Positions 17,801-60,603 of a stretch of DNA of 64,000 nucleotides are shown here, one piece after another (position 1 is the first letter of the stretch; each line of letters begins with the position of its first letter). A model generated the notes under the pieces. The model was not told where the DNA came from. It did not search any database and worked only from the letters and a program-made list of their open reading frames with translations. The translations under genes were made by a program, and so were the position numbers. The DNA is taken from assembly GCA_964433815.1 (NCBI GenBank), contig CAYSSP010000006.1:18822-82821 (forward strand), read 5' to 3'. This DNA is from an uncultured Candidatus Cloacimonadota bacterium (GTDB taxonomy: Bacteria > Cloacimonadota > Cloacimonadia > Cloacimonadales > Cloacimonadaceae).

Positions 17801-19768
17801 CCTGAGATAGCCCTCAGTCCTCAAAACTGGAATGCCGGCACAATCGAGATCAATGGCACCTCTTCCCAGGTGATCAATATCTACAATACGGGGCTCTCTC
17901 CCTTGATCATCAATAGCATCAGCCTGGGTGGCGATTCTGCCTTAAGCTTGAGCGGTGTGCCCAGCCTCCCCGCAGTGCTCTCCTTGGGACAAAGCCGCAG
18001 CTTCACGGTCAATTTCAATCCGCAAACCGCAGGGCAAAAGACAGCGACAATCACTATCAACGACAATCGGGCACTCTCAATCATCAGCCTGAGCGGCACT
18101 TGTGTAGATCCACGCATCTCCAGCCTGACCTTTACGGAAGAATTCGACAACGTCGTAAGCCCTGCCCTACCCATCGGCTGGACTACCTATAGCTCCACGA
18201 CCTCCACCGGTTACGTAAGGAGCTCCACCAGCTACTACTCATCCTTCCCAAACAGCATTACCTTTTACAACAGCTCTGATGTCATCGCCGATTTGCGCCT
18301 GATCAGCCCCCAGGTACTGGTTCCGTTGAACGGCACAAGGCTCAGCTTCAAAGCCAAAGGCAGCAGTGCCGGATACTTGCTTTTGGTAGGCACAATGCCA
18401 AATCCCACCGGAGCTTTTACCCAATTGGCCAGCTTCACCCTCAGTGCCGATTTCGCCTCTTACGAGCTCAATATCAACTATACCGGCAGCGACAACTACT
18501 TGGTCTTCAAGCATGGTCTGGGCGGCACCAGCAACCGCACCCTCTACCTTGATGACCTGAAGCTGGAGGGCCTTTACAATACCGAGCTAATGGCGCTGAG
18601 CCTCGATGGACCCGCCTATGGCCAGACTTCTGAACTGCTGAGCTATACTACAACCGTCAAAAACAACGGTTTGCAGACTCAGAATAGCTACACAGTCCGG
18701 CTGATGCTGGATTCCGGACGCACTGAGCTTGCCTCGATCGCCGTTAATCAGCCTCTCGCCCCCGGTGAAAGCAGACAGCACAGCCTCTCCTGGACTCCTC
18801 TTACTACCGGTAGTTTTGAGCTTTACAGCAATGTAGAGGTTCCCGGCGACAGTTACATAGCAAATAACCAGAGCCAAAGCTACGCATCCCAAATCTTCGA
18901 TATCACAAATCTCGTTTCAGCTGTTGGCAACGACCAGGAAGCACTCACCACTAATGTGCTTCCGCTAAACTTCTTTTACAAAAACAGCATCACCGAAACC
19001 ATCTACCTGCCTTCAGATCTACAGATGTCGAGTGGCACCATCACTCATCTCGGCTATGTAAACAGCTTTGTCCAAAACCTGCTTGCCATGCCTGTCAAGA
19101 TCTGGATGAAAAACACAGCTTCAGCCAATCTAAGCAGTGGTTGGGAGGATTTTACCGGATACAGCCTGGTCTTTGACGGAACGGTCGATTTCCCTCAAGG
19201 AGTGAATAGTATCTTGATCGCACTTAGCAGTCCTTTCACCTATACCGGCGGGAATCTGGCAGTTCGGGTCAACCGCCCTATGGATGCTGTTTATTACAAT
19301 ACCGCCAATCACTTCTATTACAATGTATCTGGTGCCGTTCCAGATCGCTCCCGCTACCTCTATAGCGATAGCACTGTATATGATCCCACCGCCCCTGCTG
19401 CCACCGGAACTCTCTCCAGCAATATACCCATGAGCGTGTTTATCTCGCAAAACGCATCACCTTATACTCTCGAAGCACCTCAGGCCTCTGTAAGCATAGG
19501 CGCTGGATTGATGCAACTTAGTTGGACCCAGGCACCCGGCCATTATGGATACGATATCTATGAAACTGATGATCCCAGTCTCTGGCCGGGCAATCCCACT
19601 GCCACTGTCTATACTCCCGGCTACAGCTCATCGCTGGCACCTCGCAAATTCTTCAAGATAAAAGCCTTTAGCTATAGCTTTGATCCCCGTATGCTTGTCC
19701 AAAGCAGTCTCCGATCCGGCTTACCCAAACCCATGGAAGCTATCGGCGAGATTCAAAACAAGGATTAA
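14873..19768 (+). CDS. Giant secreted M6-family (immune inhibitor A-like) zinc metalloprotease with multiple Ig/FN3/jelly-roll modules
   Basis: The signal peptide is followed by 'VKQPDGSSLNLFATGDEYHNWLHDENNFTI', typical of the M6 N-terminal domain. HEXXH 'CHEFFHTLG' lies at 15818-15832. The start is GTG at 14873 or ATG at 14879. Confidence 0.8.
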   Translation: MEMPQCHKLCKYGFLLLFVLLTVTIQAAVIRGIEMTVKQPDGSSLNLFATGDEYHNWLHDENNFTIIQDKQTGYYCYAMRDGEGVTASPLIVGKGDPRSIGLEPGINISSSLYRQMRSEKFYMPAERDAPTTGTINNLVIYIRFSDETEFGQSNSIYDGWFNTGTSSQKGYFLEASYNQLTVNTHFYPAPAGGYVVSWQDSHPRAYYQPYNASTNPSGYDGDTERRNREFSLLQSACNAVGSSVPSNLTIDSDNDGRVDNVVFIVKGSAGAWSSLLWPHRWSLYDRYVYIQGKRVYDFNFQLQNFLSSRGVGVICHEFFHTLGAPDLYHYTDNGIDPAGSWDLMESDQNPPQHMTAFMKWKYGDWIASIPTISADGIYSLNPLTSPTGQAYRINSNNANQYYMVEFRKKTGTYESSIPNSGMLIYRIDTSCGNGNADGPPDELYIYRLNGTTTTNGSLSSAHFSTESGRIKIDNTTNPAPFLQDGSAGNLYLCEIGSSSGTTMTFRKGAPQIDFGINPYTQGFDATSYPPDGWLNPVLVGTETMNRVTSGTNPTCSPQSGGGMVKYNSDTSASGSSALLISPKIVCSDAVNSRYSVSFWMYRDGNYTTSLDRMEFYLNSSADLSGSPVLLGTIHRNRNQSPSVSTPGWKNYSFELPMPSTGNYYLLAKAISAGGYNMYLDSFSIAKLPAPATNPIPADLSTGQNPSTNLGWTASTGSPAGYKLYLGTDNPPTNLVNGIDLGLVTNYNPSTDLLPLTTYYWQLVPYNAGGQTPNCPIWSFSTLSAVNLPFTESFGTTGTTFPPLDWTRYSGVLANPSTIVTNTSYWIQDDWLNLSTNPANKSARMNIYGSTRYGWMISPLINLQAGTLLEFDLGLTDYSNSNPIGSDTTGLTGTDDSFAVLISDGSSWSPANIIRLWDNAGSPYVYNQISHLGQRVIIDLSAHSGYKYLAFYGASSTANADNDLFVDNISLRLANPAPEIALSPQNWNAGTIEINGTSSQVINIYNTGLSPLIINSISLGGDSALSLSGVPSLPAVLSLGQSRSFTVNFNPQTAGQKTATITINDNRALSIISLSGTCVDPRISSLTFTEEFDNVVSPALPIGWTTYSSTTSTGYVRSSTSYYSSFPNSITFYNSSDVIADLRLISPQVLVPLNGTRLSFKAKGSSAGYLLLVGTMPNPTGAFTQLASFTLSADFASYELNINYTGSDNYLVFKHGLGGTSNRTLYLDDLKLEGLYNTELMALSLDGPAYGQTSELLSYTTTVKNNGLQTQNSYTVRLMLDSGRTELASIAVNQPLAPGESRQHSLSWTPLTTGSFELYSNVEVPGDSYIANNQSQSYASQIFDITNLVSAVGNDQEALTTNVLPLNFFYKNSITETIYLPSDLQMSSGTITHLGYVNSFVQNLLAMPVKIWMKNTASANLSSGWEDFTGYSLVFDGTVDFPQGVNSILIALSSPFTYTGGNLAVRVNRPMDAVYYNTANHFYYNVSGAVPDRSRYLYSDSTVYDPTAPAATGTLSSNIPMSVFISQNASPYTLEAPQASVSIGAGLMQLSWTQAPGHYGYDIYETDDPSLWPGNPTATVYTPGYSSSLAPRKFFKIKAFSYSFDPRMLVQSSLRSGLPKPMEAIGEIQNKD

Positions 19769-23133: not shown

Positions 23134-24045
23134 TTAGTACTTGCCGTATTTTCTGCCAGCTTCAGCCACAGCAATATAGATACCACCGCTTACCTGTCTG
23201 CCGAAATCATCTCTACCATCCCATTGGAAAGTGTGATCGTCTGCCGCATTGCTATTGCCGGACTGGGATCTGATCAACTGGCCCTTGAGGTTATAGATAC
23301 TGAGCTTGCAGATGCAAGGCTCAGATGCTTTGATAGAAATAGTGTTTTTATCAGAAAATGGGTTGGGATAACATGAAATGATCAGGTTGGGTTGAGGAAA
23401 TGTCGGATCGTCAACAGAAGTGCCATCTGATAAAGTGAAAACAATTTTAGGAGCGTAGGGATTATATGGACTACTATCTGTGGTTGTTGCGATATTATCA
23501 TCCCTGTTGTCCCAATCTGAGAACCCATTCAAATAGATGCGATATTGTGTGCATGCTCTATTATCTGCAAAGTCCATCAATAAGCAATCTGTTACGTCGT
23601 GACTTACCCAACTGGGAATTGTAAGTGTCTCATTGGTAAAGAAAGTGTAGGTGCCATAAAAACTGGATGGAATTACATCATTTGAATTGAAAGAATCTCC
23701 ATAATCAATATGTTCCAGTATTCCCTCTGGATAGACAGAATTATCGCCACTATTGAATATCGGATATACACTTGAAGTAGAATTTCCTTCCATCGCACCT
23801 ATATACATCATAAGATAGGCTGATTGCAAATGATAGCCATCCGGAATCATGGGTAGTTCAAATGATAGATACCCAATGCTGGCAAAATGAACCATCCAGG
23901 CCCAACTGTAATAATCCCCAATCCATGTTTCCCCCTCTTGCCAATTTGCATCTACTGTAAGGTAGTTTTGCTGATAGTAGATAGACCCGCTCAACTCATC
24001 AACTGCAAGAAGTGAGTCTACAATTTCATTTTTGGAGTCACCCAT
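23134..24045 (-). CDS. AT-rich secreted protein with a T9SS C-terminal sorting domain, apparently disrupted at its 5' end
   Basis: Terminal 'CYPNPFSDKNTISIK...LSIYNLKGQLIRS...WDGRDDFGRQVSGGIYIAV'. An in-frame signal peptide (NTIVLVILILLAIILHG) lies upstream at 24046-24120. It is cut off from its RBS and ATG (24124-24126) by a TAA at 24121-24123. Confidence 0.6.
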   Translation of the reverse strand: MGDSKNEIVDSLLAVDELSGSIYYQQNYLTVDANWQEGETWIGDYYSWAWMVHFASIGYLSFELPMIPDGYHLQSAYLMMYIGAMEGNSTSSVYPIFNSGDNSVYPEGILEHIDYGDSFNSNDVIPSSFYGTYTFFTNETLTIPSWVSHDVTDCLLMDFADNRACTQYRIYLNGFSDWDNRDDNIATTTDSSPYNPYAPKIVFTLSDGTSVDDPTFPQPNLIISCYPNPFSDKNTISIKASEPCICKLSIYNLKGQLIRSQSGNSNAADDHTFQWDGRDDFGRQVSGGIYIAVAEAGRKYGKY

Positions 24046-28669: not shown

Positions 28670-29416
28670 CTACCCTACATCATCGCTTGAGGAATTATAC
28701 TTCACGACTTTTTCCCAATCAATCGATCCATTCTTCTTGCAGAAGTCCCGAATAAACTCTTGGGACAATTTATTAACTAATGAATTGTAATTTTCCAAGA
28801 ACGCATCATTCTGAGCTTTGGCCCCTGTGCCCAGCGGTTTGATTATATCTACGTACAAGCTTTCTTCGCCTGAGATAAACTCCCAGAACTTTTGTCCACA
28901 ATACTTATAGTAATTGCCGGTCTTTAGTGATTTTCCAGATTTCCCATAGCAGCATCCGTTTACTACCTCAACGATTTGCTTTGAGTTTGAGGTTTTTATT
29001 GTCTTAATGGCTTTTTCGAAGTTCAACATCATTTTTTTGATCTGGTCTGAGTTTCCCCAGTTAGGGCCCGACTTTATACTGACAAGATATCTAATGCCAT
29101 CTCTATCAAACTCTAGATCAATACCAAGAGTAGAAGACTTCTTCCCAGAGTACACTTTCTGGTTCACAAAAATTGCCAGCCCTTCCAACCAATCTCCAAA
29201 TATTGTTTCTTCACTAGAACTCAAATGAGCGTCTAAAACACACTTCACGAAATCAGTTGCAATGCCAATGTTCTTTACCTTGTATAAGTATGGATTCTTG
29301 CGACTTAAGAGCTTTTTTAAATTAACACTTTGTAAACTGCTTAGTCGGCTAGTATGATAATTCTTGATATTGTCCTTTACGTACTTTTCAATTTCCTTAA
29401 TTAATGATGGATTCAT
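28670..29416 (-). CDS. Candidate type II restriction endonuclease
   Basis: It lies immediately downstream of the methyltransferase and overlaps it by 20 nt. It shares the same AT-rich composition. 'GIDLEF..DGIRYLVSIKSG' is a PD-(D/E)xK-like arrangement. I cannot assign the family by eye. The start is at MNPSLIKE, with GAGGGG upstream. Confidence 0.5.
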   Translation of the reverse strand: MNPSLIKEIEKYVKDNIKNYHTSRLSSLQSVNLKKLLSRKNPYLYKVKNIGIATDFVKCVLDAHLSSSEETIFGDWLEGLAIFVNQKVYSGKKSSTLGIDLEFDRDGIRYLVSIKSGPNWGNSDQIKKMMLNFEKAIKTIKTSNSKQIVEVVNGCCYGKSGKSLKTGNYYKYCGQKFWEFISGEESLYVDIIKPLGTGAKAQNDAFLENYNSLVNKLSQEFIRDFCKKNGSIDWEKVVKYNSSSDDVG

Positions 29417-30299
29417 AACACCCCTCAATTTCGTTATATAACAACCCGATATCCTCAAGTTTTTTCTTTGTCATTTCAACATACTCAGGTATCAAATCTA
29501 TCCCTATGCAACTACGGCCCAATCTTTCGGCTGCATATATAGTAGTACCTGATCCCATAAAAGGATCAAGGACCATACCTTTTTCGTGGGTAAATAGCTT
29601 GATAAACCACAATGGCAATTCCTGAGGATAAGCGGCGCTGTGGTTTCTGTTATAACATTCTGTAGCCATAGTAAGTACGTTACTTGGATACACATAATCT
29701 CTACCAATCCAATTTGATACGTTCTTTCCAAAGCCGCTGTTGTTCTTTGCGTTATCTCTTATCATATCTGTATTTGAGAGTTTCTTCAGCCTACTTTGCG
29801 CCCAGTCCCCCACTGGAACCTTTACTGCTTCTTGATCCATATAGAACTTCCGACTCTTGTTAAATTGTAGTAATCTCTCCCAGCTATCGCGAAATCTATT
29901 TGGCCATTTTCCGGGATAGCTATTCTTCTTGTTCCATATAAACTCTTCGGTCCACAACCACCCTATCTTCCTCATCTCCAGAATAAGATTTAGTACATAG
30001 ACACTCCGTTCTCCATTGACTACTTTCTCTTTGATGTTCAAGATGAATGTCCCTGATGGTTTTAACACTCTAAGCAGCTCGATGGCAATTGGCATAAACC
30101 AATCTACATAATCGTCAGCTTTAATTCCTCCGTATGTGCCTTTTCTTTGATCAGAATAGGGCGGTGACGTTATTATCAGGTCAATAGAGCTATCTGGAAT
30201 ACTCTTCAATACCTCCCTAGAGTCACCCAATAGAATGCTATACTTAGTTCTTTGCCTATTCAAAGATAGCTCATTTAAACTTCTTACTGGCATAGACAT
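29397..30299 (-). CDS. Beta-class amino DNA methyltransferase (N4-cytosine or N6-adenine)
   Basis: Motif IV 'DLIITSPPY' is N-terminal and motif I 'VLDPFMGSGTT' is C-terminal. SPPY is more typical of N4-cytosine enzymes. Confidence 0.85.
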   Translation of the reverse strand: MSMPVRSLNELSLNRQRTKYSILLGDSREVLKSIPDSSIDLIITSPPYSDQRKGTYGGIKADDYVDWFMPIAIELLRVLKPSGTFILNIKEKVVNGERSVYVLNLILEMRKIGWLWTEEFIWNKKNSYPGKWPNRFRDSWERLLQFNKSRKFYMDQEAVKVPVGDWAQSRLKKLSNTDMIRDNAKNNSGFGKNVSNWIGRDYVYPSNVLTMATECYNRNHSAAYPQELPLWFIKLFTHEKGMVLDPFMGSGTTIYAAERLGRSCIGIDLIPEYVEMTKKKLEDIGLLYNEIEGCYESIIN

Positions 30300-31673: not shown

Positions 31674-32426
31674 TCAGTGTATCACGTCTGGGAAAGCCTG
31701 ATCCAGTCTGTCGAGATCTATAGTCCGAACCTCATCGGAGTGTTTTTGTGGTAAATCAACAAATTGGATGATCTGAGGATCCGCCGTGCCGGAGGCATCT
31801 TCGCTGAGGCTTACGATACAATTACTCGTTTTCATAGGTCTCACCGGGATTCCCTTTACAAGCGTAGCCCGGAATCCAGCTCTACTGATCTTTAGAATAT
31901 AAATCCCTGTTTTTAAATTCGCTAAAACGATCATACCCCTTGGATTTACCGTGCCCGAAAGAACCAACAGACTGTCTTGAAAGAGTTCATAAGTGCAATC
32001 AGCAAGACCTTGACCTGTTTGATCACAGACTTTCAGCGCAATTCTTCCGAGCGTCTCCCGAGGTGGATCGATGGCTGGACTGTCAGTGGGTATTATGTAA
32101 ATACCTCCACTTTTCATAATTACCGGAACTTTGGTTCTCTTACCAGCTCTAACCTCCACAAACAGCGAATCCACCCTCCAGTAAGCTATGAGTGAGACCT
32201 TCAATCTATAAGTCCCGGCAGGAACTCTGATCATAGCTTTCCCCCGGGCATTGGTCTGCCCACCGGTAATCCGTTGATCTCCCCGGAATACTGATATATT
32301 GGCATACTGAAGCGGCTCTCCGGATTCATTCTTCACTTTTACTGCTAATACTCCCAGATCAGTCGTATCGGCAACCGCGATTCCTACGATTAAGAGCAGA
32401 AGACACAACATAGCCTTAGCTTTCAT
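31674..32426 (-). CDS. Secreted protein with two carboxypeptidase-regulatory-like domains
   Basis: Signal peptide 'MKAKAMLCLLLLIVGIAVA'. There are two copies of the 'V.V.d..G.pl..a.v.l.........t...G......l..G.Y.l.vs..gy' pattern. Confidence 0.55.
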   Translation of the reverse strand: MKAKAMLCLLLLIVGIAVADTTDLGVLAVKVKNESGEPLQYANISVFRGDQRITGGQTNARGKAMIRVPAGTYRLKVSLIAYWRVDSLFVEVRAGKRTKVPVIMKSGGIYIIPTDSPAIDPPRETLGRIALKVCDQTGQGLADCTYELFQDSLLVLSGTVNPRGMIVLANLKTGIYILKISRAGFRATLVKGIPVRPMKTSNCIVSLSEDASGTADPQIIQFVDLPQKHSDEVRTIDLDRLDQAFPDVIH

Positions 32427-32657: not shown

Positions 32658-35600
32658 ATGAAACGTGTATGGATTCTAATGATTCTCGTTTTCGCAATTG
32701 GCTTGGCAAATGCCGAAGTGCTGAGAGTGGGGCCGGGAGAAAACTCCCTTTGGGTGCTGAGTTCGAGCAGTACCGAGACAGTTTTGCAGTATCGGATCAG
32801 CAATTTCGAGCGTCAGCGGATTGAGATCAACGGCGAGGAATGGAACCGGATTCGCCTGCCCAAAGAGGGTATTTCACAGGACAAGGGAATGCCGGAATTG
32901 CCGGTCTATAACCGCAGCATCATCATCGATGGCGCCAGCCGTATGAAGCTGGAAGTGTATGACCTGGAGTATCTGGATATGCAGCTTGCGGTCGCTCCCT
33001 CCAAGGGCGTGATCACCAGAGACATCAATCCGGAGACGGTGCCTTACACCTTTGCTCCCGTCTATGGTGAAAGCGGATTTTATCCCAGGCAGATAGCCGA
33101 ACTCTCCGAGCCCTATATCCTGAGAGATTTCCGCGGAATCACAATCAAGACAGCACCCTTTGCCTATGATCCCCAGAGCGGGACTTTGAGGATTTATACG
33201 GGCTACAAAGTGCGCGTCTATGCGGATGGAATCGACAATCTGAATACACTTTCCGGCAGTCGCGGCGCGATCTCGCGGGATTTTGCACCTCTATACGAAA
33301 ATCACTTTGTAAATTGGAACAGCTACCGATACACTCCGGTAAGCGATAACTATGGCAAGCTTTTGGTGATCTGCCACACGAACTATCTCACCCAGATATT
33401 GCCTTATGTAAATTGGAAGAAGCAAAAGGGGATCCAAACCGAGCTGGTGGAATGGAGCACGATCGGAACCACCGCCGCTCACTTGCAGACCTATATCCAA
33501 AACCGGTATAATGCAGATAATACGATTGCCTATGTGCAATTGGTGGGTGACGCGCCCCAGATTCCGAGCTTGTCTTCGGGAGGCGGAGGCAGCGATCCCA
33601 GCTTCTCGCTGGTGGCGGGTAGCGATATGTATCCGGATATCTTTATCGGAAGATTCTCTGCGGAGACTGCAGCGCAGGTAACCGCTCAGATCAACAAAGC
33701 AATCGTCTATGAGCGTGATCTGACCACAACCGATAACTGGTTGAGCAAGGCTCTGGGCATTGCCTCCGCTGAAGGTGGAGGTACGCAGGGTGATAACGGC
33801 GAAAGCGATATTGCTCATATGAATCTGATCAGGACGGATCTCTTGAATTATGGCTATACGAGCGTGGATCAGGTCTATGATCCGGGTGCCAGCGCCAGCA
33901 CAGTGACCACAAATGTCAATGCAGGACGTGGCTTTATCAATTACGTCGGGCATGGCTCCGATACCTCCTGGGTTACGACGGGCTTTAGCTCCACCAATGC
34001 CAGCGCTCTCACCAATGGCAACAAGACTCCCTTTATTATGGATGTTGCCTGCGTGAATGGCAATTTTGTCTCGCTGACCTGCTTTGCCGAGGCTTGGATG
34101 CGCAATGCCAATGGCGGAGCAGTTGCGATCTATGCCAGCTCGATCAATCAGAGCTGGAACTCGCCGATGCGGGCTCAGGACGAAGCAACTGATCTCTTGA
34201 TTGCTGAATCAAAGACCACTACAGGCGGTCTGTATTACAACGCCTCCTGCAAGATGATGGATATTTATGGCAATACATCAGGTTCTGATGGCGTCAATAT
34301 GTTTAAGACCTGGCATATCTTTGGCGATGCTTCGCTGAAGATACGCACCAAGACGCCGCTTGCGATGACGGTTACGCATCCTGCCACGATCACGATCGGG
34401 ACGATGAGCGTTACGGTCAATACAGGCGTTGCCAACGCGATGGTGGCGATCACCTATAACAATACGATCTATGGGGTCGCCAATGCCAATAGCAGCGGAG
34501 TGGCAAGCGTTAGCCTCAGTAATCCGCCCTCGGGTGTGATCAACTATACGGTTACGGCTACAGCTTTTAACCGGGTTTCATACGTTGGGACGATCCAGCA
34601 GATCGCAGCCAGCGGACCCTATATGGGAGTGGAGACCGTTAGCTATACCGATGGCAACAACAGCATCGCTGAGTACAATGAGAACGGTGGCTTCAGTGTA
34701 TCTTTCAAGAATCTGGGCACCAGCACTGCCAGCAATGTGACGGCTACTCTCACTTGCAGTAGTCCCGGGATCACGATCACCGATAATTCCGAGACAATAG
34801 CCAGCCTGGCAGCCGGTGCATCCATCTTGAGAACCAATGCCTTTGGAATCAGCGTTGCGAATAATATCGCCAATGGCATGAGCGCCAGCTTTACGATCAC
34901 TATGACCAGCGGTACGGAAAACTGGACGCATAACTTTAGCCAGGTCTTTGCCGCACCTGCTCTTGCATTTGGCTCGATGATGGTAAGCGATCCCACCGGC
35001 AACAATAATGGCAGGATCGATCCGGGCGAGACAGTCACCATCACTATTCCTTTGAACAACACAGGCGCCGCATTGAGTCCTGCGGGAACAGCCAGCTTGA
35101 GCTCTGCCACGCAGGGTATTACCATCAATACCGGGAGTACAGGATTTACCGCTATCTCTGCCGGCGGAGCAACCAGCCTGAGCTTTGGCGTATCTGCGGC
35201 ATCCGGTATGACGCTGGGCACTGTGGCAAGCTTTAGCTTTACAGCAACTGCCGGGGCTTATACTGCAGCCAAGAATGAGACTCACGCAGTTGGTTTGATC
35301 CAGGAAGACTTTGAGACGGGTAATTTTACCGGCTATCCTTGGGTTTTGGGCGGTAATCTGCCTTGGACAGTCGCCAATACCGGAGCGCATGGCGGAACAT
35401 ATACAGCCAAGAGCGGAGTTATCACGCACAGTCAGGAATCCTCAATGGAGACCACGCGCATTCTCACCGGCTCCGGTAACCTGAGCTTCTGGTACAAAGT
35501 ATCATCCGAATCCACTTATGACTTCCTGAAGTTCTACATAGACGGAGTGGTGCAGGGATCGTGGTCCGGCACAGTGGATTGGACACAAGCAAACTATACT

Positions 35601-38600
35601 CTGGATGCCGGGACAAGAGTGTTGAAATGGGTTTATAGCAAGGATGGCAGCGTTTCCAGCGGCAGTGACTGCGCCTGGGTCGATGATATCGTCTTCCCTG
35701 CCTCTACGGCTCCCAACTCATACTTTCCGCCTCAAAACTTAACTGCCACACCGGGAAATGGCTTGGTGACGCTCAATTGGCAAGCTCCTGCCTCTGGTAC
35801 TCCGACCGGATACAAGGTATTCAGGAATAGCAACCTGCTTGCCTCCGTTACAGGGCTTACTTATGCGGATAATGCCGTGGTGAATGAAACAACTTACAGC
35901 TATTATCTCAAAGCAGTCTATGCCGGCGGAGAATCTGATCCTACTGCTACGGTCAACGCCACACCCTCTGCCAATCCTACCGTAGAGGTTGTGATTGGGG
36001 CAGGAACTACGACGACCGGGACATCCGAGGCTTCACCAATCAACATCTATTATGAAAGCTTGCACGGACAGAGCGTTTACACTGCGGCTGAGATGGCTGC
36101 GGCGGGAGTAAGCGGTCCCTGCACCATCACCCAGCTTGGCTTCTATGTTGCTTCCTCTCCGACCCTCTCATTGCCCAACTTCTTAGTCCGCATGAAGCAT
36201 ACCAGCGCGACAAACGTCTCCTCCTGGCAAAGTTCGGCTAATATGCAGACAGTATTTAGCTCCGGGTCTTACACGCCTGTTGCAGGTGGATTCCATATGC
36301 TGACACTGACCACGCCATTCCAATGGAACGGAGTGGATAACATTGTAGTGGATACAGCTTTTGACGTAGTCAGTCCATGGAGCTCTACCGGCACTGTCCG
36401 CTATAGCTCCGTCACCAGCGGCTATCGCTATATCAGGGCGGATGATAATGATCAGACCAGTATCTTCTCGGGTGGCTACACATCCAGCTACCGTCCCAAT
36501 ATCAAGTTTGTCCTTTCTCCTGTACAGACTGATGCGGCTCTCATTGCAGTGGATCCGGCCAGCATCAGCAAGACAGTCAATACTGGAGCTTCCACGACAG
36601 CTCAGCTTACCATCTCCAATAGTGGTAATCTGCCGCTTACCTGGACAATCTCGGATCGCTCCAGAAGCGAGGAACTCGACGAACTGATCCGTACGGGATG
36701 GCTGAGCTTTAGCCCTGCATCAGGAACCATTCAGGCAGGTGCCAGCCAGGTGATCGAGCTTGTGCTCAATTCTGCCGGTCTTGCTAATGCTACCTACAAC
36801 AAGAACCTGGTGATTGCTTCAAACGCTTCAAACACGCCTTCCCTTTCTGTGCCGGTCAGCTTCATAGTGAGCGATCTGGTACCGAATAACCCCCGCTTTG
36901 TAGCTGAATGGGAACCTGCCAAGGGTGCTATCATTGCATACCCCTTTGGACAGCCATACAGCCTGATCCGTGATCTCTCCAATCACGGCCTGCTCTACGT
37001 CGTTGTGAGTAGCTCCCAACAATCTACCTGCGCCAGCAGCCTCAGCAGCAATAGCGTCAATATGACCAATGTACGCTACATCAATGCAATTACAGATTCT
37101 TACTGGGTAAGGGATTACGGCCCGTGGACGATCTTTGATGCAAACCGCAATATGAAGATCGTCGATTTCACTTACAACCGTCCCCGTCCCAATGATAATG
37201 CTGCCAATACAACGATCGCTACGTACTTGGGATATAACCGTTATCTGATGGAAATGAGCCACACCGGAGGCAATATTATGACCGATGGTATGGGCAAAGC
37301 GATGAGCACAGAGCTGGTTTTGGAAGAGAATACCAGCCTTACTCAAAGCCAGATCAACAACCTGATGCAGACCTATCTCGGTATCAGCGAGTACCAGCTC
37401 TATCCTGATCCAAACAACACATATATCGATCACATAGATTGCTGGGCAAAGCTGCTGGACGTGGACAAAGTGATCATCCGCAGCGTCCCCAGTTCTCACG
37501 CCCAATATGCAGCGATCGAAGCTGAAGTAGCCCGCTGGCAAAGCAAAACCAGCAGCTATGGCACACCTTACAAGATCTATCGGGTTTACACACCCAATGA
37601 TGAGCCCTACTCCAATTCCTATATAATGAACAAGCGTATCTACGTGCCCCAGATGGGCACTGCAAATGATGCTGCGGCTCTGGCTGTGTATCGCAATGCT
37701 ATGCCCGGCTACACAGTGATCGGTTACACTCATACGAATTATGAGAGCACCGATGCTCTGCATTGCCGTGTAAACACCGTTTACGACGATCAAATGATCG
37801 CACTCAGGCACACACCTCCCACCAGCGCGACAGCCACCCAAGCACTGCCGCTTGGCGTGACGATCTCCCACGGAAATCCTCTGAGCAGTACCTATGTCGC
37901 CTGGAAGAATGGTTACAATGGCACTTGGCAAAACAGCAACCTCAGCCTTGCCGGAGCAACCTGGAGCACCACCATCATCAGCCCTGCCCTGGGAGATACG
38001 ATCTATTACTGGATCAACGCCTCAGATACTACCGGCAGAAGCACCACCCTCCCGCTTTGCGCTGCCTCTGATCCTTTCAAGCTGGTCGTCAATATCCCCG
38101 CTCCCAATTCTGCCCCTACGATTGACCTGCCCCCAGGCTGGGCATTTGACAAGAACTCCAGCCTTTCAGAGAGCTTCGCAGCCTACATCAGCGATCCGGA
38201 CAACGATCCGCTGGTGCTGACTGCAAGTGGCAACAGCAATATTATCGTCCAGATCAATGGTCATAATATCAGTTTCAGCGCTGTCGCAAACTGGATTGGC
38301 AGCGAGCTGATCACCTTCACAGTGAGTGATGGTGAGTTCAGCGCAGAGGATCAGATATTGATCACTGTCAATCCGGTAAATCTGCCTGTCTGGCTGCCGG
38401 TAAATCACGGAAGCACACCTGCAACGCTCTTTGCTGTTGTTACCATCAACAATATCCCTGCACAGATCAACGACTTGGTCGCCGCCTTTGTCGGTGATGA
38501 ATGTCGCGGAATCGGCACTATCAATCTGATCGAACGCAGCATTGCCCGCACGACTCTGGATGTCAATCTGGCATCTGCAGGTGAGCTTGTGACCTTCAAG

Positions 38601-38954
38601 ATTTATGCCTTTGCGGAAGACACTATCTATCTGGTGCCCGAGGTGATGCCAATGGATCCCGGAACCACCTATGGCGCAACTGATCCAGTTCCTTTGAATG
38701 GCACAGGAGACGTCATCATTCAAAGCCCTGTCGCCAATATCCAGAGCCTCAGCGGAATCACCCGTCTATCCTGGAACGCCGTTCCCTTCGCCGGCACCTA
38801 CAAGATCTATGCCTGTAGCGAGCCGTTTGGCACGTACAACCTCCTGGGAACCACCAATACCCTCACCTGGGAGATCAATCCCAACCAAGAAAGAATGTTC
38901 TACAAGGTCGTAGCTGTCCAGCCCCTGCCGGATAACCGCAGCCCCAGAAACTAA
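32658..38954 (+). CDS. Giant secreted fusion protein: gingipain-like propeptide plus C25 cysteine peptidase, Ig/MAM/FN3 modules, and a Porphyromonas-type peptidylarginine deiminase (PAD_porph) domain
   Basis: C25 motifs are 'INYVGHGSDTSW' (His432) and 'FIMDVACVNGNF' (Cys465). PAD motifs at aa ~1412-1715 are 'FVAEWEPAKG', 'YWVRDYGPW', 'YNRPRPNDN', 'HTGGNIMTDGMG', 'IDHIDCW' and 'TDALHCRVN'. AGAGGAGA RBS, signal peptide, hairpin terminator. Confidence 0.85.
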   Translation: MKRVWILMILVFAIGLANAEVLRVGPGENSLWVLSSSSTETVLQYRISNFERQRIEINGEEWNRIRLPKEGISQDKGMPELPVYNRSIIIDGASRMKLEVYDLEYLDMQLAVAPSKGVITRDINPETVPYTFAPVYGESGFYPRQIAELSEPYILRDFRGITIKTAPFAYDPQSGTLRIYTGYKVRVYADGIDNLNTLSGSRGAISRDFAPLYENHFVNWNSYRYTPVSDNYGKLLVICHTNYLTQILPYVNWKKQKGIQTELVEWSTIGTTAAHLQTYIQNRYNADNTIAYVQLVGDAPQIPSLSSGGGGSDPSFSLVAGSDMYPDIFIGRFSAETAAQVTAQINKAIVYERDLTTTDNWLSKALGIASAEGGGTQGDNGESDIAHMNLIRTDLLNYGYTSVDQVYDPGASASTVTTNVNAGRGFINYVGHGSDTSWVTTGFSSTNASALTNGNKTPFIMDVACVNGNFVSLTCFAEAWMRNANGGAVAIYASSINQSWNSPMRAQDEATDLLIAESKTTTGGLYYNASCKMMDIYGNTSGSDGVNMFKTWHIFGDASLKIRTKTPLAMTVTHPATITIGTMSVTVNTGVANAMVAITYNNTIYGVANANSSGVASVSLSNPPSGVINYTVTATAFNRVSYVGTIQQIAASGPYMGVETVSYTDGNNSIAEYNENGGFSVSFKNLGTSTASNVTATLTCSSPGITITDNSETIASLAAGASILRTNAFGISVANNIANGMSASFTITMTSGTENWTHNFSQVFAAPALAFGSMMVSDPTGNNNGRIDPGETVTITIPLNNTGAALSPAGTASLSSATQGITINTGSTGFTAISAGGATSLSFGVSAASGMTLGTVASFSFTATAGAYTAAKNETHAVGLIQEDFETGNFTGYPWVLGGNLPWTVANTGAHGGTYTAKSGVITHSQESSMETTRILTGSGNLSFWYKVSSESTYDFLKFYIDGVVQGSWSGTVDWTQANYTLDAGTRVLKWVYSKDGSVSSGSDCAWVDDIVFPASTAPNSYFPPQNLTATPGNGLVTLNWQAPASGTPTGYKVFRNSNLLASVTGLTYADNAVVNETTYSYYLKAVYAGGESDPTATVNATPSANPTVEVVIGAGTTTTGTSEASPINIYYESLHGQSVYTAAEMAAAGVSGPCTITQLGFYVASSPTLSLPNFLVRMKHTSATNVSSWQSSANMQTVFSSGSYTPVAGGFHMLTLTTPFQWNGVDNIVVDTAFDVVSPWSSTGTVRYSSVTSGYRYIRADDNDQTSIFSGGYTSSYRPNIKFVLSPVQTDAALIAVDPASISKTVNTGASTTAQLTISNSGNLPLTWTISDRSRSEELDELIRTGWLSFSPASGTIQAGASQVIELVLNSAGLANATYNKNLVIASNASNTPSLSVPVSFIVSDLVPNNPRFVAEWEPAKGAIIAYPFGQPYSLIRDLSNHGLLYVVVSSSQQSTCASSLSSNSVNMTNVRYINAITDSYWVRDYGPWTIFDANRNMKIVDFTYNRPRPNDNAANTTIATYLGYNRYLMEMSHTGGNIMTDGMGKAMSTELVLEENTSLTQSQINNLMQTYLGISEYQLYPDPNNTYIDHIDCWAKLLDVDKVIIRSVPSSHAQYAAIEAEVARWQSKTSSYGTPYKIYRVYTPNDEPYSNSYIMNKRIYVPQMGTANDAAALAVYRNAMPGYTVIGYTHTNYESTDALHCRVNTVYDDQMIALRHTPPTSATATQALPLGVTISHGNPLSSTYVAWKNGYNGTWQNSNLSLAGATWSTTIISPALGDTIYYWINASDTTGRSTTLPLCAASDPFKLVVNIPAPNSAPTIDLPPGWAFDKNSSLSESFAAYISDPDNDPLVLTASGNSNIIVQINGHNISFSAVANWIGSELITFTVSDGEFSAEDQILITVNPVNLPVWLPVNHGSTPATLFAVVTINNIPAQINDLVAAFVGDECRGIGTINLIERSIARTTLDVNLASAGELVTFKIYAFAEDTIYLVPEVMPMDPGTTYGATDPVPLNGTGDVIIQSPVANIQSLSGITRLSWNAVPFAGTYKIYACSEPFGTYNLLGTTNTLTWEINPNQERMFYKVVAVQPLPDNRSPRN

Positions 38955-38966
38955 TCATATACCTAT

Positions 38967-38997
38967 AGCGGGATGGTGCCAAGCGTGCCATCCCGCT
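38967..38997 (+). terminator. Rho-independent terminator
   Basis: Stem agcgggatgg (38967-38976) pairs with ccatcccgct (38988-38997), followed by ttgctttg. The stem sequence is related to the terminator at 935-965. Confidence 0.6.
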
Positions 38998-59154: not shown

Positions 59155-60603
59155 CTAACGCGTTTCGATCAATTCAGCGATAACCCTGTAAAAGGATCTT
59201 TCCTGCAAATCGACCAGAGGGATTGATACTATGGGCTCGGTGCTGTAGCTGTGTAATACGGGTACGGCAAAACCGGGCTCATCGGATAGCTCGATCCTAT
59301 ATCGGCTTACGCTGAGAGGAGTGCCTGCCAGGCTCTGTATCACAGGGCTCCAAGTGAGTAGCAGGTTACCACCCACCGCCTCTGCCTCCACTTGCTCGGG
59401 AGAATTCAGCCCGGTAATATAGGTATAGGTCTGGGGACTGGATGCCTCATAGAGATCGCCTCCCATACTGATTAATGTACTGCCCTCGGCTTGGAAGAAC
59501 TCAGGCATTATCCCAAAGAGATTTTCGCTGCGGTATTCGACCGTCTGGCTGTAATCTTGGCTTTGGGGAAAGAGCGGATAGGGATCAAAGCTTCCCAACT
59601 CAAAGTACATATCCATTGGGAAATAACCCAGATTGTGGGAGTAATTAGTGCGGAAGTAGTAATCATCCGGCTCGAGCACAAGCTCCGGGGCACCATATAC
59701 AGCCTCATTGAGAGGATCATAAAAGAGCTTGGTAAGGTTCACGGTGGCTCCGGCGCTATCGTCCTGCTTCGTAGTAGCAAAGGGAATTACTGTGGTTCGA
59801 TTGGTAATGGTCTGGGTTCCGATTACGGGGTTCTGGGGATTGAACCACGCAGCAAAATCCGGATCAGCTAAGAGATCTGAGAGGTTACAGCTCATGATCA
59901 GGATGTTGCTGGAACTAACTACCTGACTTTGGATATTGCCAATGCGGATCAAATCGCTGGTGCCTGTGCCGGTGATCTTGTAAAGACCGGGACTGATACC
60001 ACCAAGCGATACGTTCATATAGTTCATAGCCCAGACTATCGTATTGGGATCTGTGGGATCGGCAGCAGGATCTGCTATGATACTCATATAGGAGTTGTAA
60101 ACGGTCCCAAAACTACCGGTGGTGGGGAAGCCTCCGCCCCTGTTTTGTATTGCCATATATAGCTTGGTATCTGAAAACGATACATAATCTGCCACGATAT
60201 CATAGATATTGGTCAAGCTGGTGTTTTGCTCATCCTGCGAGGAAAGAGTGAGCTGGGCTAAGCCGGGTAGATTGGCTCCATCGTAATAAACCGGGAAGAT
60301 GTTGGTCTTGCCTGTGTTTGAAACCTGTTTGGAGCCCAGATAGCTGCGGGCATTGGTGCCGGGAATCTGCTTCTGATAGGTGTAGTAATCCGGATCATAG
60401 AGATCCAGCTCCGCTTCCATGATAGCGGTGGAACCGGGATAGAGCACTTTGTTTGATACTGTGGTACCGGGAACGATCTCCGTCCTCAAATAAAAGCGAT
60501 CCTCAGCATCTTGTCCGCTGTAGCGCAGATTCTGCCAGGCACCGGGGCTAAGCGCAGCCAGAGCGGTGCTAATCGACAACAATGATATCATGATTACTTT
60601 CAT
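59155..60603 (-). CDS. Secreted hypothetical protein ending in an FN3-like domain
   Basis: Signal peptide 'MKVIMISLLSISTALAA'. C-terminal 'LLLTWSP....YRIELSDEPGF....SFYRVIAE'. AGAGG RBS. Confidence 0.6.
   Translation of the reverse strand: MKVIMISLLSISTALAALSPGAWQNLRYSGQDAEDRFYLRTEIVPGTTVSNKVLYPGSTAIMEAELDLYDPDYYTYQKQIPGTNARSYLGSKQVSNTGKTNIFPVYYDGANLPGLAQLTLSSQDEQNTSLTNIYDIVADYVSFSDTKLYMAIQNRGGGFPTTGSFGTVYNSYMSIIADPAADPTDPNTIVWAMNYMNVSLGGISPGLYKITGTGTSDLIRIGNIQSQVVSSSNILIMSCNLSDLLADPDFAAWFNPQNPVIGTQTITNRTTVIPFATTKQDDSAGATVNLTKLFYDPLNEAVYGAPELVLEPDDYYFRTNYSHNLGYFPMDMYFELGSFDPYPLFPQSQDYSQTVEYRSENLFGIMPEFFQAEGSTLISMGGDLYEASSPQTYTYITGLNSPEQVEAEAVGGNLLLTWSPVIQSLAGTPLSVSRYRIELSDEPGFAVPVLHSYSTEPIVSIPLVDLQERSFYRVIAELIETR

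What the first reader, a model, noticed from the sequence alone, without database searches (positions are those of the whole stretch)
32658..38954. Gingipain-type C25 peptidase and PPAD-type peptidylarginine deiminase fused in one 2098-aa secreted protein
Seen in sequence, N-terminal part:
- a signal peptide and a gingipain-like propeptide
- a C25 core with 'INYVGHGSDTSW' (His432, codon 33951-33953) and 'FIMDVACVNGNF' (Cys465, codon 34050-34052)
- a His-Cys spacing of 33 residues, which as I recall matches His211/Cys244 of RgpB

Seen in sequence, aa ~1412-1715 (nt ~36891-37800), a complete guanidino-group-modifying fold of the PAD_porph type:
- 'FVAEWEPAKGAIIAYP', 'DSYWVRDYGPW', 'YNRPRPNDN', 'HTGGNIMTDGMGKAMST'
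- 'IDHIDCW' (an H-x-D pair, His1592/Asp1594)
- 'TDALHCRVN' (candidate nucleophile Cys1703)
- a His-to-Cys distance of ~111 aa, close to the 236/351 spacing in P. gingivalis PPAD

Established knowledge: in Porphyromonas gingivalis, Arg-gingipains and PPAD are separate T9SS cargo proteins that act in sequence. The gingipain exposes C-terminal Arg residues and PPAD citrullinates them.

Inference: placing both activities on one polypeptide is a Rosetta-stone-type fusion. It would hard-wire proteolysis to deimination (ammonia release) at the cell surface of a non-Porphyromonas organism. I am not aware that this architecture has been described.
Basis: partly seen in the sequence, partly recalled or inferred. 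Interest (0 to 1): 0.8.

Follow-up and report, generated by a model that had tools for sequence, protein, structure and literature searches.

The report
Gingipain–PPAD fusion enzyme of Cloacimonadota
One 2,098-residue exported protein of an uncultured Cloacimonadota bacterium carries both an arginine-cutting protease and the enzyme that converts a newly exposed end-arginine into citrulline; these two activities are known as separate partner enzymes in the gum pathogen Porphyromonas gingivalis, and the fusion is widespread in sequence databases, but I found no paper describing it.

Summary
ORF 32658..38954 (+) encodes an intact 2,098-aa protein with these parts:
- a signal peptide
- a gingipain propeptide
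- an RgpB-like C25 catalytic domain plus Ig domain (1e-92 to RgpB)
- about 750 aa of beta-sandwich spacers
- a PPAD-type deiminase plus IgSF domain (3e-86 to PPAD; agmatine deiminases only about 1e-8)
- a terminal Fn3 domain

Every residue that defines Arg-specific cleavage (E372, D384, H432, C465, Q498, W500) is present. So is every residue that defines C-terminal-arginine deimination (D1486, R1508, R1510, Y1589, H1592, D1594, N1653, C1703). All except E372 (kept in at least 90%) are invariant in 20 diverse fused homologues.

It is not an assembly chimera. 93 of the best 120 database clusters and 21 species-representative genome loci carry the same fusion, and every named one is Cloacimonadota. 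In 12 Bacteroidales/Bacteroidota MAGs the two genes are separate but adjacent, which is a true Rosetta-stone pattern.

PPAD-type enzymes are not Porphyromonas-specific: 531 clusters reach E<=1e-30.

The protein has no T9SS C-terminal domain, so surface display is not shown. Sequential cleave-then-deiminate action is inferred, not demonstrated. No paper describing the fusion was found. I rate it a new variant of a known kind.

The parts
32658..32714 (+). Sec signal peptide (aa 1-19, MKRVWILMILVFAIGLANA|E)
   Evidence: Read directly from the translation. The same N-terminal pattern is conserved in the homologue consensus. The cleavage site is inferred from the A-x-A motif and was not predicted with a dedicated tool.
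32715..33329 (+). Gingipain pro-domain (aa 20-224), ending at the invariant R224|Y225
   Evidence: Pfam Propeptide_C25, 83 bits. RgpB pro-domain 4ief_A, 6e-31. R224 and Y225 are invariant in 20 fused homologues and align with the RgpB autoprocessing site Arg229|Tyr. The segment aa 1-224 (signal peptide plus pro-domain) has 8% Arg against 3% for the whole protein.
33330..34352 (+). C25 catalytic domain of gingipain-R type (aa 225-565): E372, D384 (S1 pocket), H432, C465, Q498, W500
   Evidence: Pfam Peptidase_C25, 195.5 bits. RgpB 1.4e-92 against Kgp 1e-30. 42% identity over 413 columns, and all listed residues align with RgpB E152/D163/H211/C244/Q282/W284. D-H-C-W is kept at these positions in all 199 aligned C25 domains (Q in 197).
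34353..34607 (+). C25 C-terminal Ig-like domain (aa 566-650)
   Evidence: Pfam Peptidase_C25_C, 69 bits. It aligns with the RgpB IgSF domain to residue 429.
34608..36869 (+). Variable beta-sandwich spacer or binding modules (aa 651-1404): CARDB/DUF11-like, a lectin/MAM-like module, fn3 (aa 1024-1100), an unassigned module (aa 1106-1290), and a HYDIN/BACON-type Ig (aa 1296-1392)
   Evidence: Weak Pfam hits. The modules are present, absent or duplicated among homologues of 1132-2620 aa. Arg content is only 0.9-2.7%. The PDB sequence search found nothing informative beyond an fn3 hit.
36870..37817 (+). PPAD-type guanidino-modifying domain (aa 1405-1720): W1483, D1486, R1508, R1510, Y1589, H1592, D1594, C1595, N1653, C1703. 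A conserved Arg1413 (nt 36894-36896) lies at its N-terminal edge.
   Evidence: Pfam PAD_porph, 110.7 bits. PPAD 6i0x 3e-86 against agmatine deiminases >=4e-9. 44% identity over 307 columns, with W127/D130/R152/R154/Y233/H236/D238/N297/C351 all matched. These residues are invariant in A1. Gatekeeper C239 = C1595 is kept in 238 of 245 family members.
37818..38102 (+). Post-PAD IgSF-like domain (aa 1721-1815), counterpart of the PPAD IgSF domain
   Evidence: PPAD chains are the only PDB sequence hits, and they are weak (E=0.03, chain residues 378-418). In the AF2 model of the minimal homologue P0295, 419 of 422 PPAD residues (catalytic domain plus IgSF) superpose with TM 0.90.
38103..38687 (+). 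Big_9/cadherin-like Ig domain (aa 1816-1910) and an unassigned beta module (aa 1911-2010)
   Evidence: Pfam Big_9 1.4e-6 and Cadherin_5 1e-4. NCBIfam tandem-95 repeat 1.3e-8. The modules are dispensable in the short homologues.
38688..38951 (+). Conserved terminal Fn3-like domain with a short basic tail (aa 2011-2098). It occupies the position where RgpB and PPAD carry the T9SS C-terminal domain.
   Evidence: No Por_Secre_tail or other sorting-domain hit. It is conserved at the C-terminus of 111 homologues. AF2 pLDDT is 85.7 and the best Foldseek matches are Fn3 domains. There is a weak Pfam GH85_C hit in 14 of 33 members.
38967..38997 (+). Terminator-like hairpin (13-bp stem, 8 G-C pairs) 13 nt after the stop codon
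   Evidence: Consensus scan. The upstream neighbour 31674..32426 is on the opposite strand, so the gene looks monocistronic.

Best explanation
The gene encodes an exported, bifunctional 'cleave-then-deiminate' enzyme of a Cloacimonadota bacterium.

Shown by the sequence:
- A Sec signal peptide.
- An RgpB-type zymogen unit: pro-domain, C25 catalytic domain and Ig domain.
- A variable chain of beta-sandwich modules.
- A PPAD-type unit: catalytic domain plus IgSF domain.
- A terminal Fn3 domain.
- Both active sites are complete.

Inferred mechanism:
1. The pro-domain is removed at the conserved R224|Y225 site.
2. The gingipain-R-like domain cuts proteins after arginine. Its S1 pocket carries Asp384.
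3. The tethered PPAD-like domain has a carboxylate clamp (R1508/R1510/Y1589) suited to a free C-terminus. It converts the newly made C-terminal arginine to citrulline and releases ammonia.

In a protein- and amino-acid-fermenting anaerobe this is most likely nutritional. Possible benefits are ammonia release and removal of the charged product that would otherwise re-bind the protease S1 pocket or hinder uptake. A virulence role is unlikely.

The fusion is the fixed form of a partnership that exists in two other arrangements: as two adjacent T9SS-cargo genes in uncultured Bacteroidales, and as two unlinked genes in P. gingivalis.
For: - Domain identities and boundaries.
- All catalytic and specificity residues of RgpB and PPAD align. 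Their roles are taken from PMC4487231 and PMC4357240.
- The same residues are invariant (E372: at least 90%) across 20 diverse fused proteins.
- The PAD signature W-D-R-R-(Y/S/T)-H-D-N-C is kept in 109 of 112 fused domains, with one further variant at the Tyr233 position and two with a changed residue elsewhere; 131 of 133 stand-alone domains carry the Tyr form.
- The C25 signature is kept in all fused, adjacent and unlinked C25 domains.
- The fusion recurs in 93 of the best 120 clusters and in 21 genome loci.
- There are at least two strongly supported fused clades, with bootstrap 99 and 100. The C25 tree is congruent.
- Twelve Bacteroidales/Bacteroidota MAGs have the two genes adjacent on one strand. 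Gaps are 10-302 nt and both gene orders occur. Eleven of the 12 downstream genes start with a signal-peptide-like N-terminus, and each gene of the two C25->PAD pairs examined has its own T9SS C-terminal domain.
- The minimal 1132-1134-aa form is exactly RgpB(pro-CD-Ig) + ~10-aa linker + PPAD(CD-IgSF) + Fn3.
- The AF2 model of that form superposes on RgpB (TM 0.94), the RgpB pro-domain (0.89-0.91) and PPAD (0.90).
- In P. gingivalis, PPAD acts on C-termini made by Rgp, and gingipain-null mutants lack citrullination: PMC4487231.
Against: - No activity was measured. Arg specificity and exo-deiminase specificity rest on conserved residues only.
- No T9SS C-terminal domain or other known outer-membrane targeting signal is present. 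Extracellular or surface location is therefore not shown.
- The AF2 pTM of the minimal form is only 0.49. Nothing supports a fixed geometry or substrate channelling between the two sites.
- The window protein places about 840 residues between the end of the C25 catalytic domain and the start of the PAD domain.
- A conserved Arg (R1413) just before the PAD domain could be a self-cleavage site that separates the two enzymes after export.
- The physiological benefit of making C-terminal citrulline is unknown even in P. gingivalis.
Confidence: 0.7

Rival explanations
1. Polyprotein precursor. The fusion serves only co-expression and co-export. After activation the gingipain domain cuts the chain, for example at the conserved Arg1413 before the PAD domain. 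The protease and deiminase then act as separate or non-covalently associated enzymes, as RgpA and Kgp polyproteins are processed in P. gingivalis.
For: - The Arg immediately before the PAD domain is kept in >=90% of fused proteins. It is present in the short linker 'P-R|F/N/Q' of three of the four fused sequence groups.
- The pro-domain junction R224|Y225 shows that the protein is built for Arg-directed self-processing.
- Processing of RgpA and Kgp polyproteins is established knowledge, from my own memory.
Against: - The same Arg exists in mature PPAD (R55, inside the crystallised A44-A475 fragment). It may therefore be structural.
- Spacer modules are strongly depleted in Arg (0.9-2.7%; the later Big_9-like module has none), as expected if the chain must survive its own protease.
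- The sequential chemistry would be the same either way.
Confidence: 0.3
2. The PAD domain is a free-substrate enzyme, an agmatine or free L-arginine deiminase that scavenges small guanidino compounds. It would be unrelated to the products of the protease domain.
For: - Pfam PAD_porph covers both agmatine deiminases and PPAD.
- NCBI and JGI pipelines name many homologues 'agmatine deiminase family protein'.
- PPAD itself has low activity on free arginine.
Against: - NCBIfam AguA models score 59-63 bits against cut-offs of 382-483.
- PPAD scores 3e-86 against >=4e-9 for agmatine deiminases.
- Foldseek TM is 0.90 to PPAD including its IgSF domain, against 0.69-0.79 to agmatine deiminases.
- R152, R154 and Y233 bind the substrate C-terminal carboxylate and the preceding carbonyl in PPAD. 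They are conserved in the window protein, although Tyr233 is Ser/Thr/Asn in 48 of 112 fused domains.
- Agmatine has no carboxylate.
Confidence: 0.07
3. Self-directed maturation enzyme. The pair trims and citrullinates the bacterium's own envelope or surface proteins rather than feeding on external protein. In P. gingivalis, Rgp plus PPAD modify fimbrial and envelope proteins in this way.
For: PPAD citrullinates many Rgp-truncated bacterial cell-envelope proteins (PMC4487231). Nothing in the sequence specifies the substrate.
Against: - The modular spacers (lectin/MAM-like, CARDB, fn3, cadherin-like) resemble substrate-binding arms of secreted degradative enzymes. Some fused relatives end in dockerins.
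- Published genome analyses of Cloacimonadota infer use of extracellular polypeptides (PMC8542988).
- This reading is not exclusive of the main explanation.
Confidence: 0.15
4. Assembly or annotation artefact: two neighbouring genes were joined by a mis-assembly or a lost stop codon.
For: One Cloacimonadota MAG (L002) has an in-frame stop between the halves. Bacteroidales keep two separate genes.
Against: - The same continuous ORF occurs in 93 of the best 120 clusters from NCBI, JGI, ENA and Logan assemblies and in 21 species-representative genome loci.
- A 91%-identical full-length copy exists (P0001).
- GC is uniform across the ORF.
- No signal peptide or T9SS C-terminal domain remnant lies between the halves.
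Confidence: 0.01

Closest known systems
RgpB (Arg-gingipain B, peptidase family C25) of Porphyromonas gingivalis
   Same: - The order pro-domain, catalytic domain, IgSF domain.
- 42% identity over 413 columns.
- H211/C244 dyad, E152, and S1 residues D163/Q282/W284.
- An Arg|Tyr pro-domain junction.
- Foldseek TM 0.94 for a fused homologue.

   Different: - The T9SS C-terminal domain that follows the IgSF domain in RgpB is replaced by spacer modules plus a whole PPAD unit and an Fn3 domain.
- The host is a non-pathogenic environmental phylum.
PPAD (Porphyromonas peptidylarginine deiminase, PG1424; PDB 4YT9/4YTB/6I0X)
   Same: - 44% identity over 307 columns.
- Catalytic D130/H236/D238/N297/C351, gatekeeper C239, and carboxylate clamp R152/R154/Y233.
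- An IgSF domain follows the catalytic domain.
- Foldseek TM 0.90 over 419 of 422 residues.

   Different: - It has no signal peptide, pro-peptide or T9SS C-terminal domain of its own. It is an internal domain of a protease polypeptide.
- It carries N/T/D at positions 231/232/235, as in the hyperactive PPAD T2 variant, rather than the G/E/N of the laboratory strains.
RgpA and Kgp multidomain gingipain polyproteins
   Same: A long secreted C25 protease with non-catalytic modules C-terminal to the catalytic and Ig domains, probably matured by Arg-directed cleavage.
   Different: - The appended modules in RgpA and Kgp are haemagglutinin/adhesin (cleaved-adhesin) domains, not a second enzyme. No such domains were detected here.
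- Kgp is a much weaker match: 1e-30 and TM 0.80.
Adjacent C25 and PAD_porph gene pairs in uncultured Bacteroidales/Bacteroidota MAGs (found here: L041, L046, L048, L050, L052, L058, L059, L061, L063, L067, L069, L075)
   Same: The same two enzyme types with the same catalytic signatures, genetically linked on one strand with gaps of 10-302 nt.
   Different: - They are two separate proteins. Eleven of the 12 downstream genes begin with a signal-peptide-like N-terminus, and in the two C25->PAD pairs examined (L058, L069) each gene has its own Por_Secre_tail C-terminal domain.
- Both gene orders occur.
Agmatine deiminase (AguA; e.g. PDB 2JER, 3HVM)
   Same: The same guanidino-group-modifying alpha/beta-propeller fold and the same Cys/His/Asp chemistry.
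   Different: - Only about 20% identity.
- It scores below the NCBIfam cut-offs.
- It has no IgSF domain.
- Agmatine has no carboxylate, so the R152/R154 clamp has no equivalent role.

Membership tests
Peptidase family C25, gingipain-R type | Pfam Peptidase_C25 above the gathering score | tested here: met
   195.5 bits against a cut-off of 23.
Peptidase family C25, gingipain-R type | Catalytic His/Cys dyad aligned with RgpB H211/C244, plus E152 | tested here: met
   H432, C465 and E372. H and C are invariant in A1 and E372 is kept in >=90%.
Peptidase family C25, gingipain-R type | Arg-specific S1 pocket: D163 salt-bridges the P1 guanidinium, with Q282 and the W284 lid (PMC4357240) | tested here: met
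   D384, Q498 and W500. D, H, C and W are kept in all 199 aligned C25 domains and Q in 197. RgpB scores 1.4e-92 against Kgp 1e-30.
Peptidase family C25, gingipain-R type | N-terminal inhibitory pro-domain removed at an Arg site | tested here: met
   Propeptide_C25, 83 bits. 4ief_A, 6e-31. The invariant R224|Y225 aligns with the Arg229|Tyr site. Actual cleavage cannot be tested here.
Peptidase family C25, gingipain-R type | Arg-X endopeptidase activity | not testable with these tools
   Requires an enzyme assay.
PPAD-type peptidylarginine (exo)deiminase | Pfam PAD_porph above the gathering score, and closer to PPAD than to agmatine deiminases | tested here: met
   - 110.7 bits against a cut-off of 25.
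- PPAD 3e-86 against >=4e-9 for agmatine deiminases.
- AguA NCBIfam models far below their cut-offs.
- TM 0.90 against 0.69-0.79 in a fused homologue.
PPAD-type peptidylarginine (exo)deiminase | Catalytic D130, H236, D238, N297, C351 (Goulas 2015) | tested here: met
   D1486, H1592, D1594, N1653 and C1703. All are invariant in A1.
PPAD-type peptidylarginine (exo)deiminase | C-terminal-carboxylate clamp R152, R154, Y233, which gives exo-specificity | tested here: met
   R1508, R1510 and Y1589. R-R is kept in all but one of 245 family members. The Tyr is replaced by Ser, Thr or Asn in 48 of 112 fused domains.
PPAD-type peptidylarginine (exo)deiminase | IgSF domain following the catalytic domain | tested here: inconclusive
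   For the window protein there is only a weak, PPAD-specific sequence hit (E=0.03). For the 63%-identical minimal homologue P0295, the model covers 419 of 422 PPAD residues including the IgSF domain.
PPAD-type peptidylarginine (exo)deiminase | Deimination of peptide C-terminal Arg in preference to internal Arg, free Arg or agmatine | not testable with these tools
   Requires an enzyme assay.
Type IX secretion system cargo (as RgpB and PPAD are) | C-terminal sorting domain (Por_Secre_tail/TIGR04183, or type-B CHU_C/TIGR04131) | tested here: not met
   - No hit in the last 200 or 400 aa at E<=10 in Pfam or NCBIfam.
- None in the precomputed Pfam lists of the fused homologues.
- The terminal domain folds as Fn3.
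- Three other window ORFs do carry such domains, so the models do detect them in this organism.
Agmatine deiminase (AguA) | NCBIfam equivalog TIGR03380 or PRK13551 above cut-off | tested here: not met
   58.9 bits against 381.8, and 63 bits against 483.

The most novel reading that the evidence does not exclude
The Rgp-PPAD partnership is treated in the literature as a Porphyromonas-specific virulence trait. It may instead be an old, widespread extracellular protein-processing module of anaerobic FCB-group bacteria.

- It occurs as unlinked genes in Porphyromonas, as operon-like pairs in uncultured Bacteroidales, and as fusions that arose or diversified into at least two to four lineages in Cloacimonadota.
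- In the fused form the deiminase works on the protease's own products, so citrullination of C-termini would be a nutritional or ammonia-releasing step rather than an immune-evasion device.
- A second, smaller novelty: the conserved terminal Fn3 domain replaces the T9SS C-terminal domain and may be an undescribed sorting or anchoring signal of Cloacimonadota.
Probability: 0.45. Interest if true: 0.7.

Novelty: new variant of a known kind. Interest (0 to 1): 0.6.

Why it matters
PPAD is still described, including in a 2026 review (PMC13539308), as a unique citrullinating enzyme with homologues only in P. gulae and P. loveana. Its link to rheumatoid arthritis rests on its cooperation with Arg-gingipains.

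What this locus and its relatives show:
- PPAD-type exo-deiminases form a large environmental family, with 531 clusters at 50% identity reaching E<=1e-30.
- Evolution has repeatedly tied them to gingipain-R-type proteases, by gene adjacency and by fusion.

Why that is useful:
- It is independent, comparative evidence that the two activities are functionally coupled, and that the coupling predates host association.
- The compact 1134-aa single-chain Cloacimonas version is a natural construct for testing whether tethering improves cleave-then-citrullinate throughput.
- It would also allow a test of what C-terminal citrullination is for in bacterial physiology.
- The residue triple of the 'hyperactive' clinical PPAD T2 variant turns out to be the family consensus. 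The common laboratory-strain form may therefore be the derived, attenuated one.

Tried and rejected
- An exact look-up of the window protein in the contig index found nothing. The source sample is unknown. The nearest copy is 91% identical (P0001), and the best genome locus is about 72% identical.
- I searched for a T9SS or other sorting domain in the C-terminal 200-400 aa with Pfam and NCBIfam at E<=10 and found none. An AF2 model plus Foldseek of the last 95 aa gave only Fn3 folds, with no T9SS C-terminal domain structure among the matches.
- A PDB sequence search of the middle modules (aa 865-1294) gave only an fn3 hit.
- Full-length AF2 modelling of the 1134-aa homologue was used to look for a fixed arrangement of the two active sites. 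The domains are confident (pLDDT 84) but pTM is 0.49, so nothing can be said about geometry. No coordinates are available to measure distances.
- I looked for a single origin of the fusion. In NJ trees the main fused clade has bootstrap 99 and a second clade 100, but their union only 60. Two further fused sequence groups sit among stand-alone PADs. The number of fusion events is unresolved. NJ with midpoint rooting and no agmatine-deiminase outgroup is too weak to place P. gingivalis PPAD.
- Arg depletion as evidence of self-protease resistance is suggestive only. Other exported proteins of the window are similarly poor in Arg and Lys.
- Literature searches for the fusion found nothing. Only open-access full text was searched.
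- The RgpB zymogen paper PMC3656285 is not held. A review was used instead.

Full report
**The observation**

The window contains one uninterrupted ORF, 32658..38954 on the + strand, of 2098 codons. The gene upstream is divergent. A strong terminator-like hairpin (38967-38997) follows the stop codon. The gene therefore looks monocistronic.

GC content is even across the ORF.

**Domain content**

Pfam places these domains, all far above gathering scores:
- Propeptide_C25, aa 33-188
- Peptidase_C25, aa 236-561
- the C25 Ig domain, aa 567-647
- PAD_porph, aa 1414-1694

Weaker hits are fn3, a HYDIN/BACON-type Ig and Big_9.

Against solved structures:
- The N-terminal part matches mature RgpB at 1.4e-92 and the RgpB pro-domain at 6e-31. 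Kgp reaches only 1e-30.
- The PAD segment matches P. gingivalis PPAD at 3e-86. The best agmatine-deiminase-like chains reach only 4e-9.
- NCBIfam agmatine-deiminase models score 59-63 bits against cut-offs of 382-483.

**Active sites**

I mapped reference residues through pairwise alignment.

RgpB residues and their counterparts:
- E152, D163, H211, C244, Q282, W284
- correspond to E372, D384, H432, C465, Q498, W500.
- D163 makes the bidentate salt bridge with the P1 arginine and W284 is the pocket lid (PMC4357240).

PPAD residues and their counterparts:
- W127, D130, R152, R154, Y233, H236, D238, N297, C351
- correspond to W1483, D1486, R1508, R1510, Y1589, H1592, D1594, N1653, C1703.
- In PPAD, R152, R154 and Y233 hold the substrate's C-terminal carboxylate. 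They explain an exo-deiminase activity about 5,500 times higher than the endo-deiminase activity (PMC4487231).

The pro-domain ends at R224|Y225, aligned with the RgpB autoprocessing site Arg229|Tyr.

In an alignment of 20 diverse fused homologues (38-70% identical to the window protein), all of these residues are invariant except E372, which is kept in at least 90%. Both halves therefore look catalytically competent and are under selection.

**Not a chimera, and not rare**

- A full-length search returned 2298 relatives at E<=1e-10.
- 93 of the best 120 clusters (1231-2620 aa, from NCBI, JGI, ENA and Logan, on contigs up to 703 kb) contain both C25 and PAD_porph in one chain.
- A scan of one genome per GTDB species found 21 loci with a single ORF carrying both domains.
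- Every named source is Cloacimonadota (Cloacimonas, Cloacimonadaceae, Syntrophosphaera). The one unnamed locus (L049) belongs to a cluster whose named member is also Cloacimonetes.
- The window itself is therefore a Cloacimonadota genome fragment. Its exact protein is not on record.
- Sources name these proteins either 'C25 family cysteine peptidase' or 'agmatine deiminase family protein', never both.

**Modularity**

The spacer modules between the two enzymes come and go.

The shortest form is 1132-1134 aa, from Ca. Cloacimonas sp., with clusters of 161 and 115 members. Its order is signal peptide, pro-domain, C25, Ig, a linker of about 10 residues ending in Pro-Arg, PAD, IgSF, Fn3.

An AF2 model of this form has confident domains (mean pLDDT 84.4) but an unresolved domain arrangement (pTM 0.49). 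It superposes on the known structures as follows:
- mature RgpB: TM 0.94, rmsd 1.7 A
- RgpB pro-domain: TM 0.89-0.91
- whole PPAD including its IgSF domain: TM 0.90 over 419 of 422 residues
- agmatine deiminases: TM 0.69-0.79

The fusion is thus an RgpB unit joined to a PPAD unit at the point where RgpB would carry its secretion domain.

**The Rosetta-stone counterpart**

In 12 Bacteroidales/Bacteroidota MAGs the same two enzyme types are separate genes lying next to each other on one strand. Gaps are 10-302 nt. Eight pairs are in the order C25 then PAD, and four in the reverse order. Eleven of the 12 downstream genes begin with a signal-peptide-like N-terminus.

In the two C25-then-PAD pairs examined (L058, L069), each gene carries its own Por_Secre_tail domain. 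That is the RgpB and PPAD architecture, but with the genes genetically linked.

The catalytic signatures are kept in all of them. In NJ trees RgpB groups with these Bacteroidales C25 genes.

**How many fusions**

- The main fused clade, which contains the window protein, has bootstrap 99/100. A second fused clade has 100/100. Their union has only 60.
- The C25 tree shows the same groups.
- Two further fused sequence groups have nearest PAD relatives that include stand-alone enzymes. One of these groups carries a GEVED domain. The other includes a protein ending in a dockerin.
- The trees are simple NJ trees without an outgroup. I therefore claim only 'at least two well-supported fused clades'.

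**The wider PPAD-type family**

An exhaustive phmmer search of the PAD domain against 1.84 billion cluster representatives gave 531 clusters at E<=1e-30 and 1351 at E<=1e-10. At least 150 score as well as PPAD itself.

Many of the best matches are exported stand-alone proteins of about 500-700 aa (others run to about 1,400 aa), named by their sources as Marinimicrobia, Fermentibacteria, Fidelibacterota, Bacteroidota or Cloacimonadota. Some end in a dockerin or a T9SS C-terminal domain. Nearly all keep the full W-D-R-R-Y-H-D-N-C signature.

[quoted passage not shown] No paper mentioning a C25-PAD fusion was found.

**Export and location**

The protein has a typical Sec signal peptide but no T9SS C-terminal domain. 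Three other ORFs in the window do have one.

Instead, the last 88 residues form a conserved Fn3-fold domain with a short basic tail. The same domain ends two other exported proteins in the window and some stand-alone Cloacimonadota PADs. It may be a lineage-specific sorting or anchoring element, but this is speculation.

Surface or extracellular location of the enzyme is therefore inferred, not shown.

**Mechanism and its limits**

Shown: the domain identities, complete active sites, conservation, recurrence of the fusion, and gene adjacency elsewhere.

Inferred from established P. gingivalis biochemistry (PMC4487231): the protease creates C-terminal arginines and the deiminase converts them to citrulline with release of ammonia.

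Open points:
- whether the chain stays intact or is cut at the conserved Arg1413;
- whether tethering gives any kinetic advantage;
- what the organism gains.

Cloacimonadota are described as fermenters that use extracellular polypeptides (PMC8542988). A nutritional role is therefore more plausible than virulence.

**Verdict**

Both enzyme families and their cooperation are known. The single-chain form, its abundance in Cloacimonadota, the adjacent-gene form in Bacteroidales, and the size of the environmental PPAD-type family appear undescribed. I rate it a new variant of a known kind, with interest 0.6.

Noticed in passing
window 38688-38951 (+); also about 19412-19672 (+) at the C-terminus of ORF 14873..19768, and about 59173-59454 (-) at the C-terminus of ORF 59155..60603: An ~88-aa Fn3-fold domain with a short basic tail ends three different exported proteins in this window: the fusion, a 1631-aa M6/InhA-like peptidase, and a 482-aa protein with no Pfam hit. 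It also ends stand-alone Cloacimonadota PADs (P0122, P0200). It sits where Bacteroidota relatives carry the T9SS C-terminal domain, so it may be a lineage-specific sorting or anchoring signal.
   Followed up: partly
window 37416-37430 (aa N1587, T1588, D1591); PAD family alignment: The residue triple of the 'super-active' clinical PPAD T2 variant (G231N, E232T, N235D; PMC10991804) is the consensus of the environmental family. N-T-D occurs in 109 of 133 stand-alone domains and 39 of 112 fused domains, and N-S-D in a further 45 fused domains. The laboratory-strain G-E-N form therefore looks like the derived state.
   Followed up: partly
L041, L046, L048, L050, L052, L058, L059, L061, L063, L067, L069, L075 (genome-contig loci): Uncultured Bacteroidales/Bacteroidota MAGs carry a gingipain-like C25 gene and a PPAD-like gene side by side on one strand. 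Gaps are 10-302 nt and both orders occur. Eleven of the 12 downstream genes begin with a signal-peptide-like N-terminus, and in the two pairs examined (L058, L069) each gene also has its own T9SS C-terminal domain.
   Followed up: partly
proteins P0124-P0240 and P0300-P0440: There is a large family of exported stand-alone PPAD-type proteins (531 clusters at E<=1e-30). Sources name members as Marinimicrobia, Fermentibacteria, Fidelibacterota, Bacteroidota and Cloacimonadota. Many end in a dockerin (PF00404) and a few in a T9SS C-terminal domain. This contradicts the view that PPAD is restricted to Porphyromonas.
   Followed up: partly
window 28670..29458 (-) and 29397..30299 (-): An EcoO109I-type restriction endonuclease (Pfam 4e-81) overlaps an N6/N4 DNA methylase gene. 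They lie in a stretch of lower GC (0.41 against 0.49 for the window), about 2.4 kb upstream of the fusion gene. This is probably a mobile restriction-modification cassette.
   Followed up: no
window 14873..19768 (+): A 1631-aa exported protein with a weak M6/InhA-like metallopeptidase core, HYDIN-type Ig and CARDB modules, and the same terminal Fn3 domain. It is a second large modular protease in the neighbourhood.
   Followed up: no
window 6..914 (+), 8370..10829 (-), 23134..24045 (-): These three ORFs carry recognisable T9SS-type C-terminal domains (Por_Secre_tail/FlgD_ig, CHU_C). The organism therefore appears to have T9SS cargo even though the fusion protein lacks the signal.
   Followed up: no
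window 36894-36896 (Arg1413): A conserved Arg immediately precedes the PAD domain in >=90% of fused proteins, and in the short 'P-R' linker of minimal forms. It could be a self-processing site. The equivalent Arg is also inside mature PPAD, so it may be structural instead.
   Followed up: partly
L002:11607-11609: In one Cloacimonadota MAG the fused gene is interrupted by a single in-frame stop between the C25 half and the PAD half. There is no nearby restart codon. This is a sequencing error, a pseudogene or a recoding event.
   Followed up: no
protein P0403 (2195 aa) and relatives P0377, P0408: This is a further group of C25-PAD fusions in which the PAD follows the C25 Ig domain directly. P0403 ends in a type I dockerin, which suggests incorporation into a cellulosome-like scaffold as proposed for Ca. 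Stygibacter (PMC8542988).
   Followed up: no
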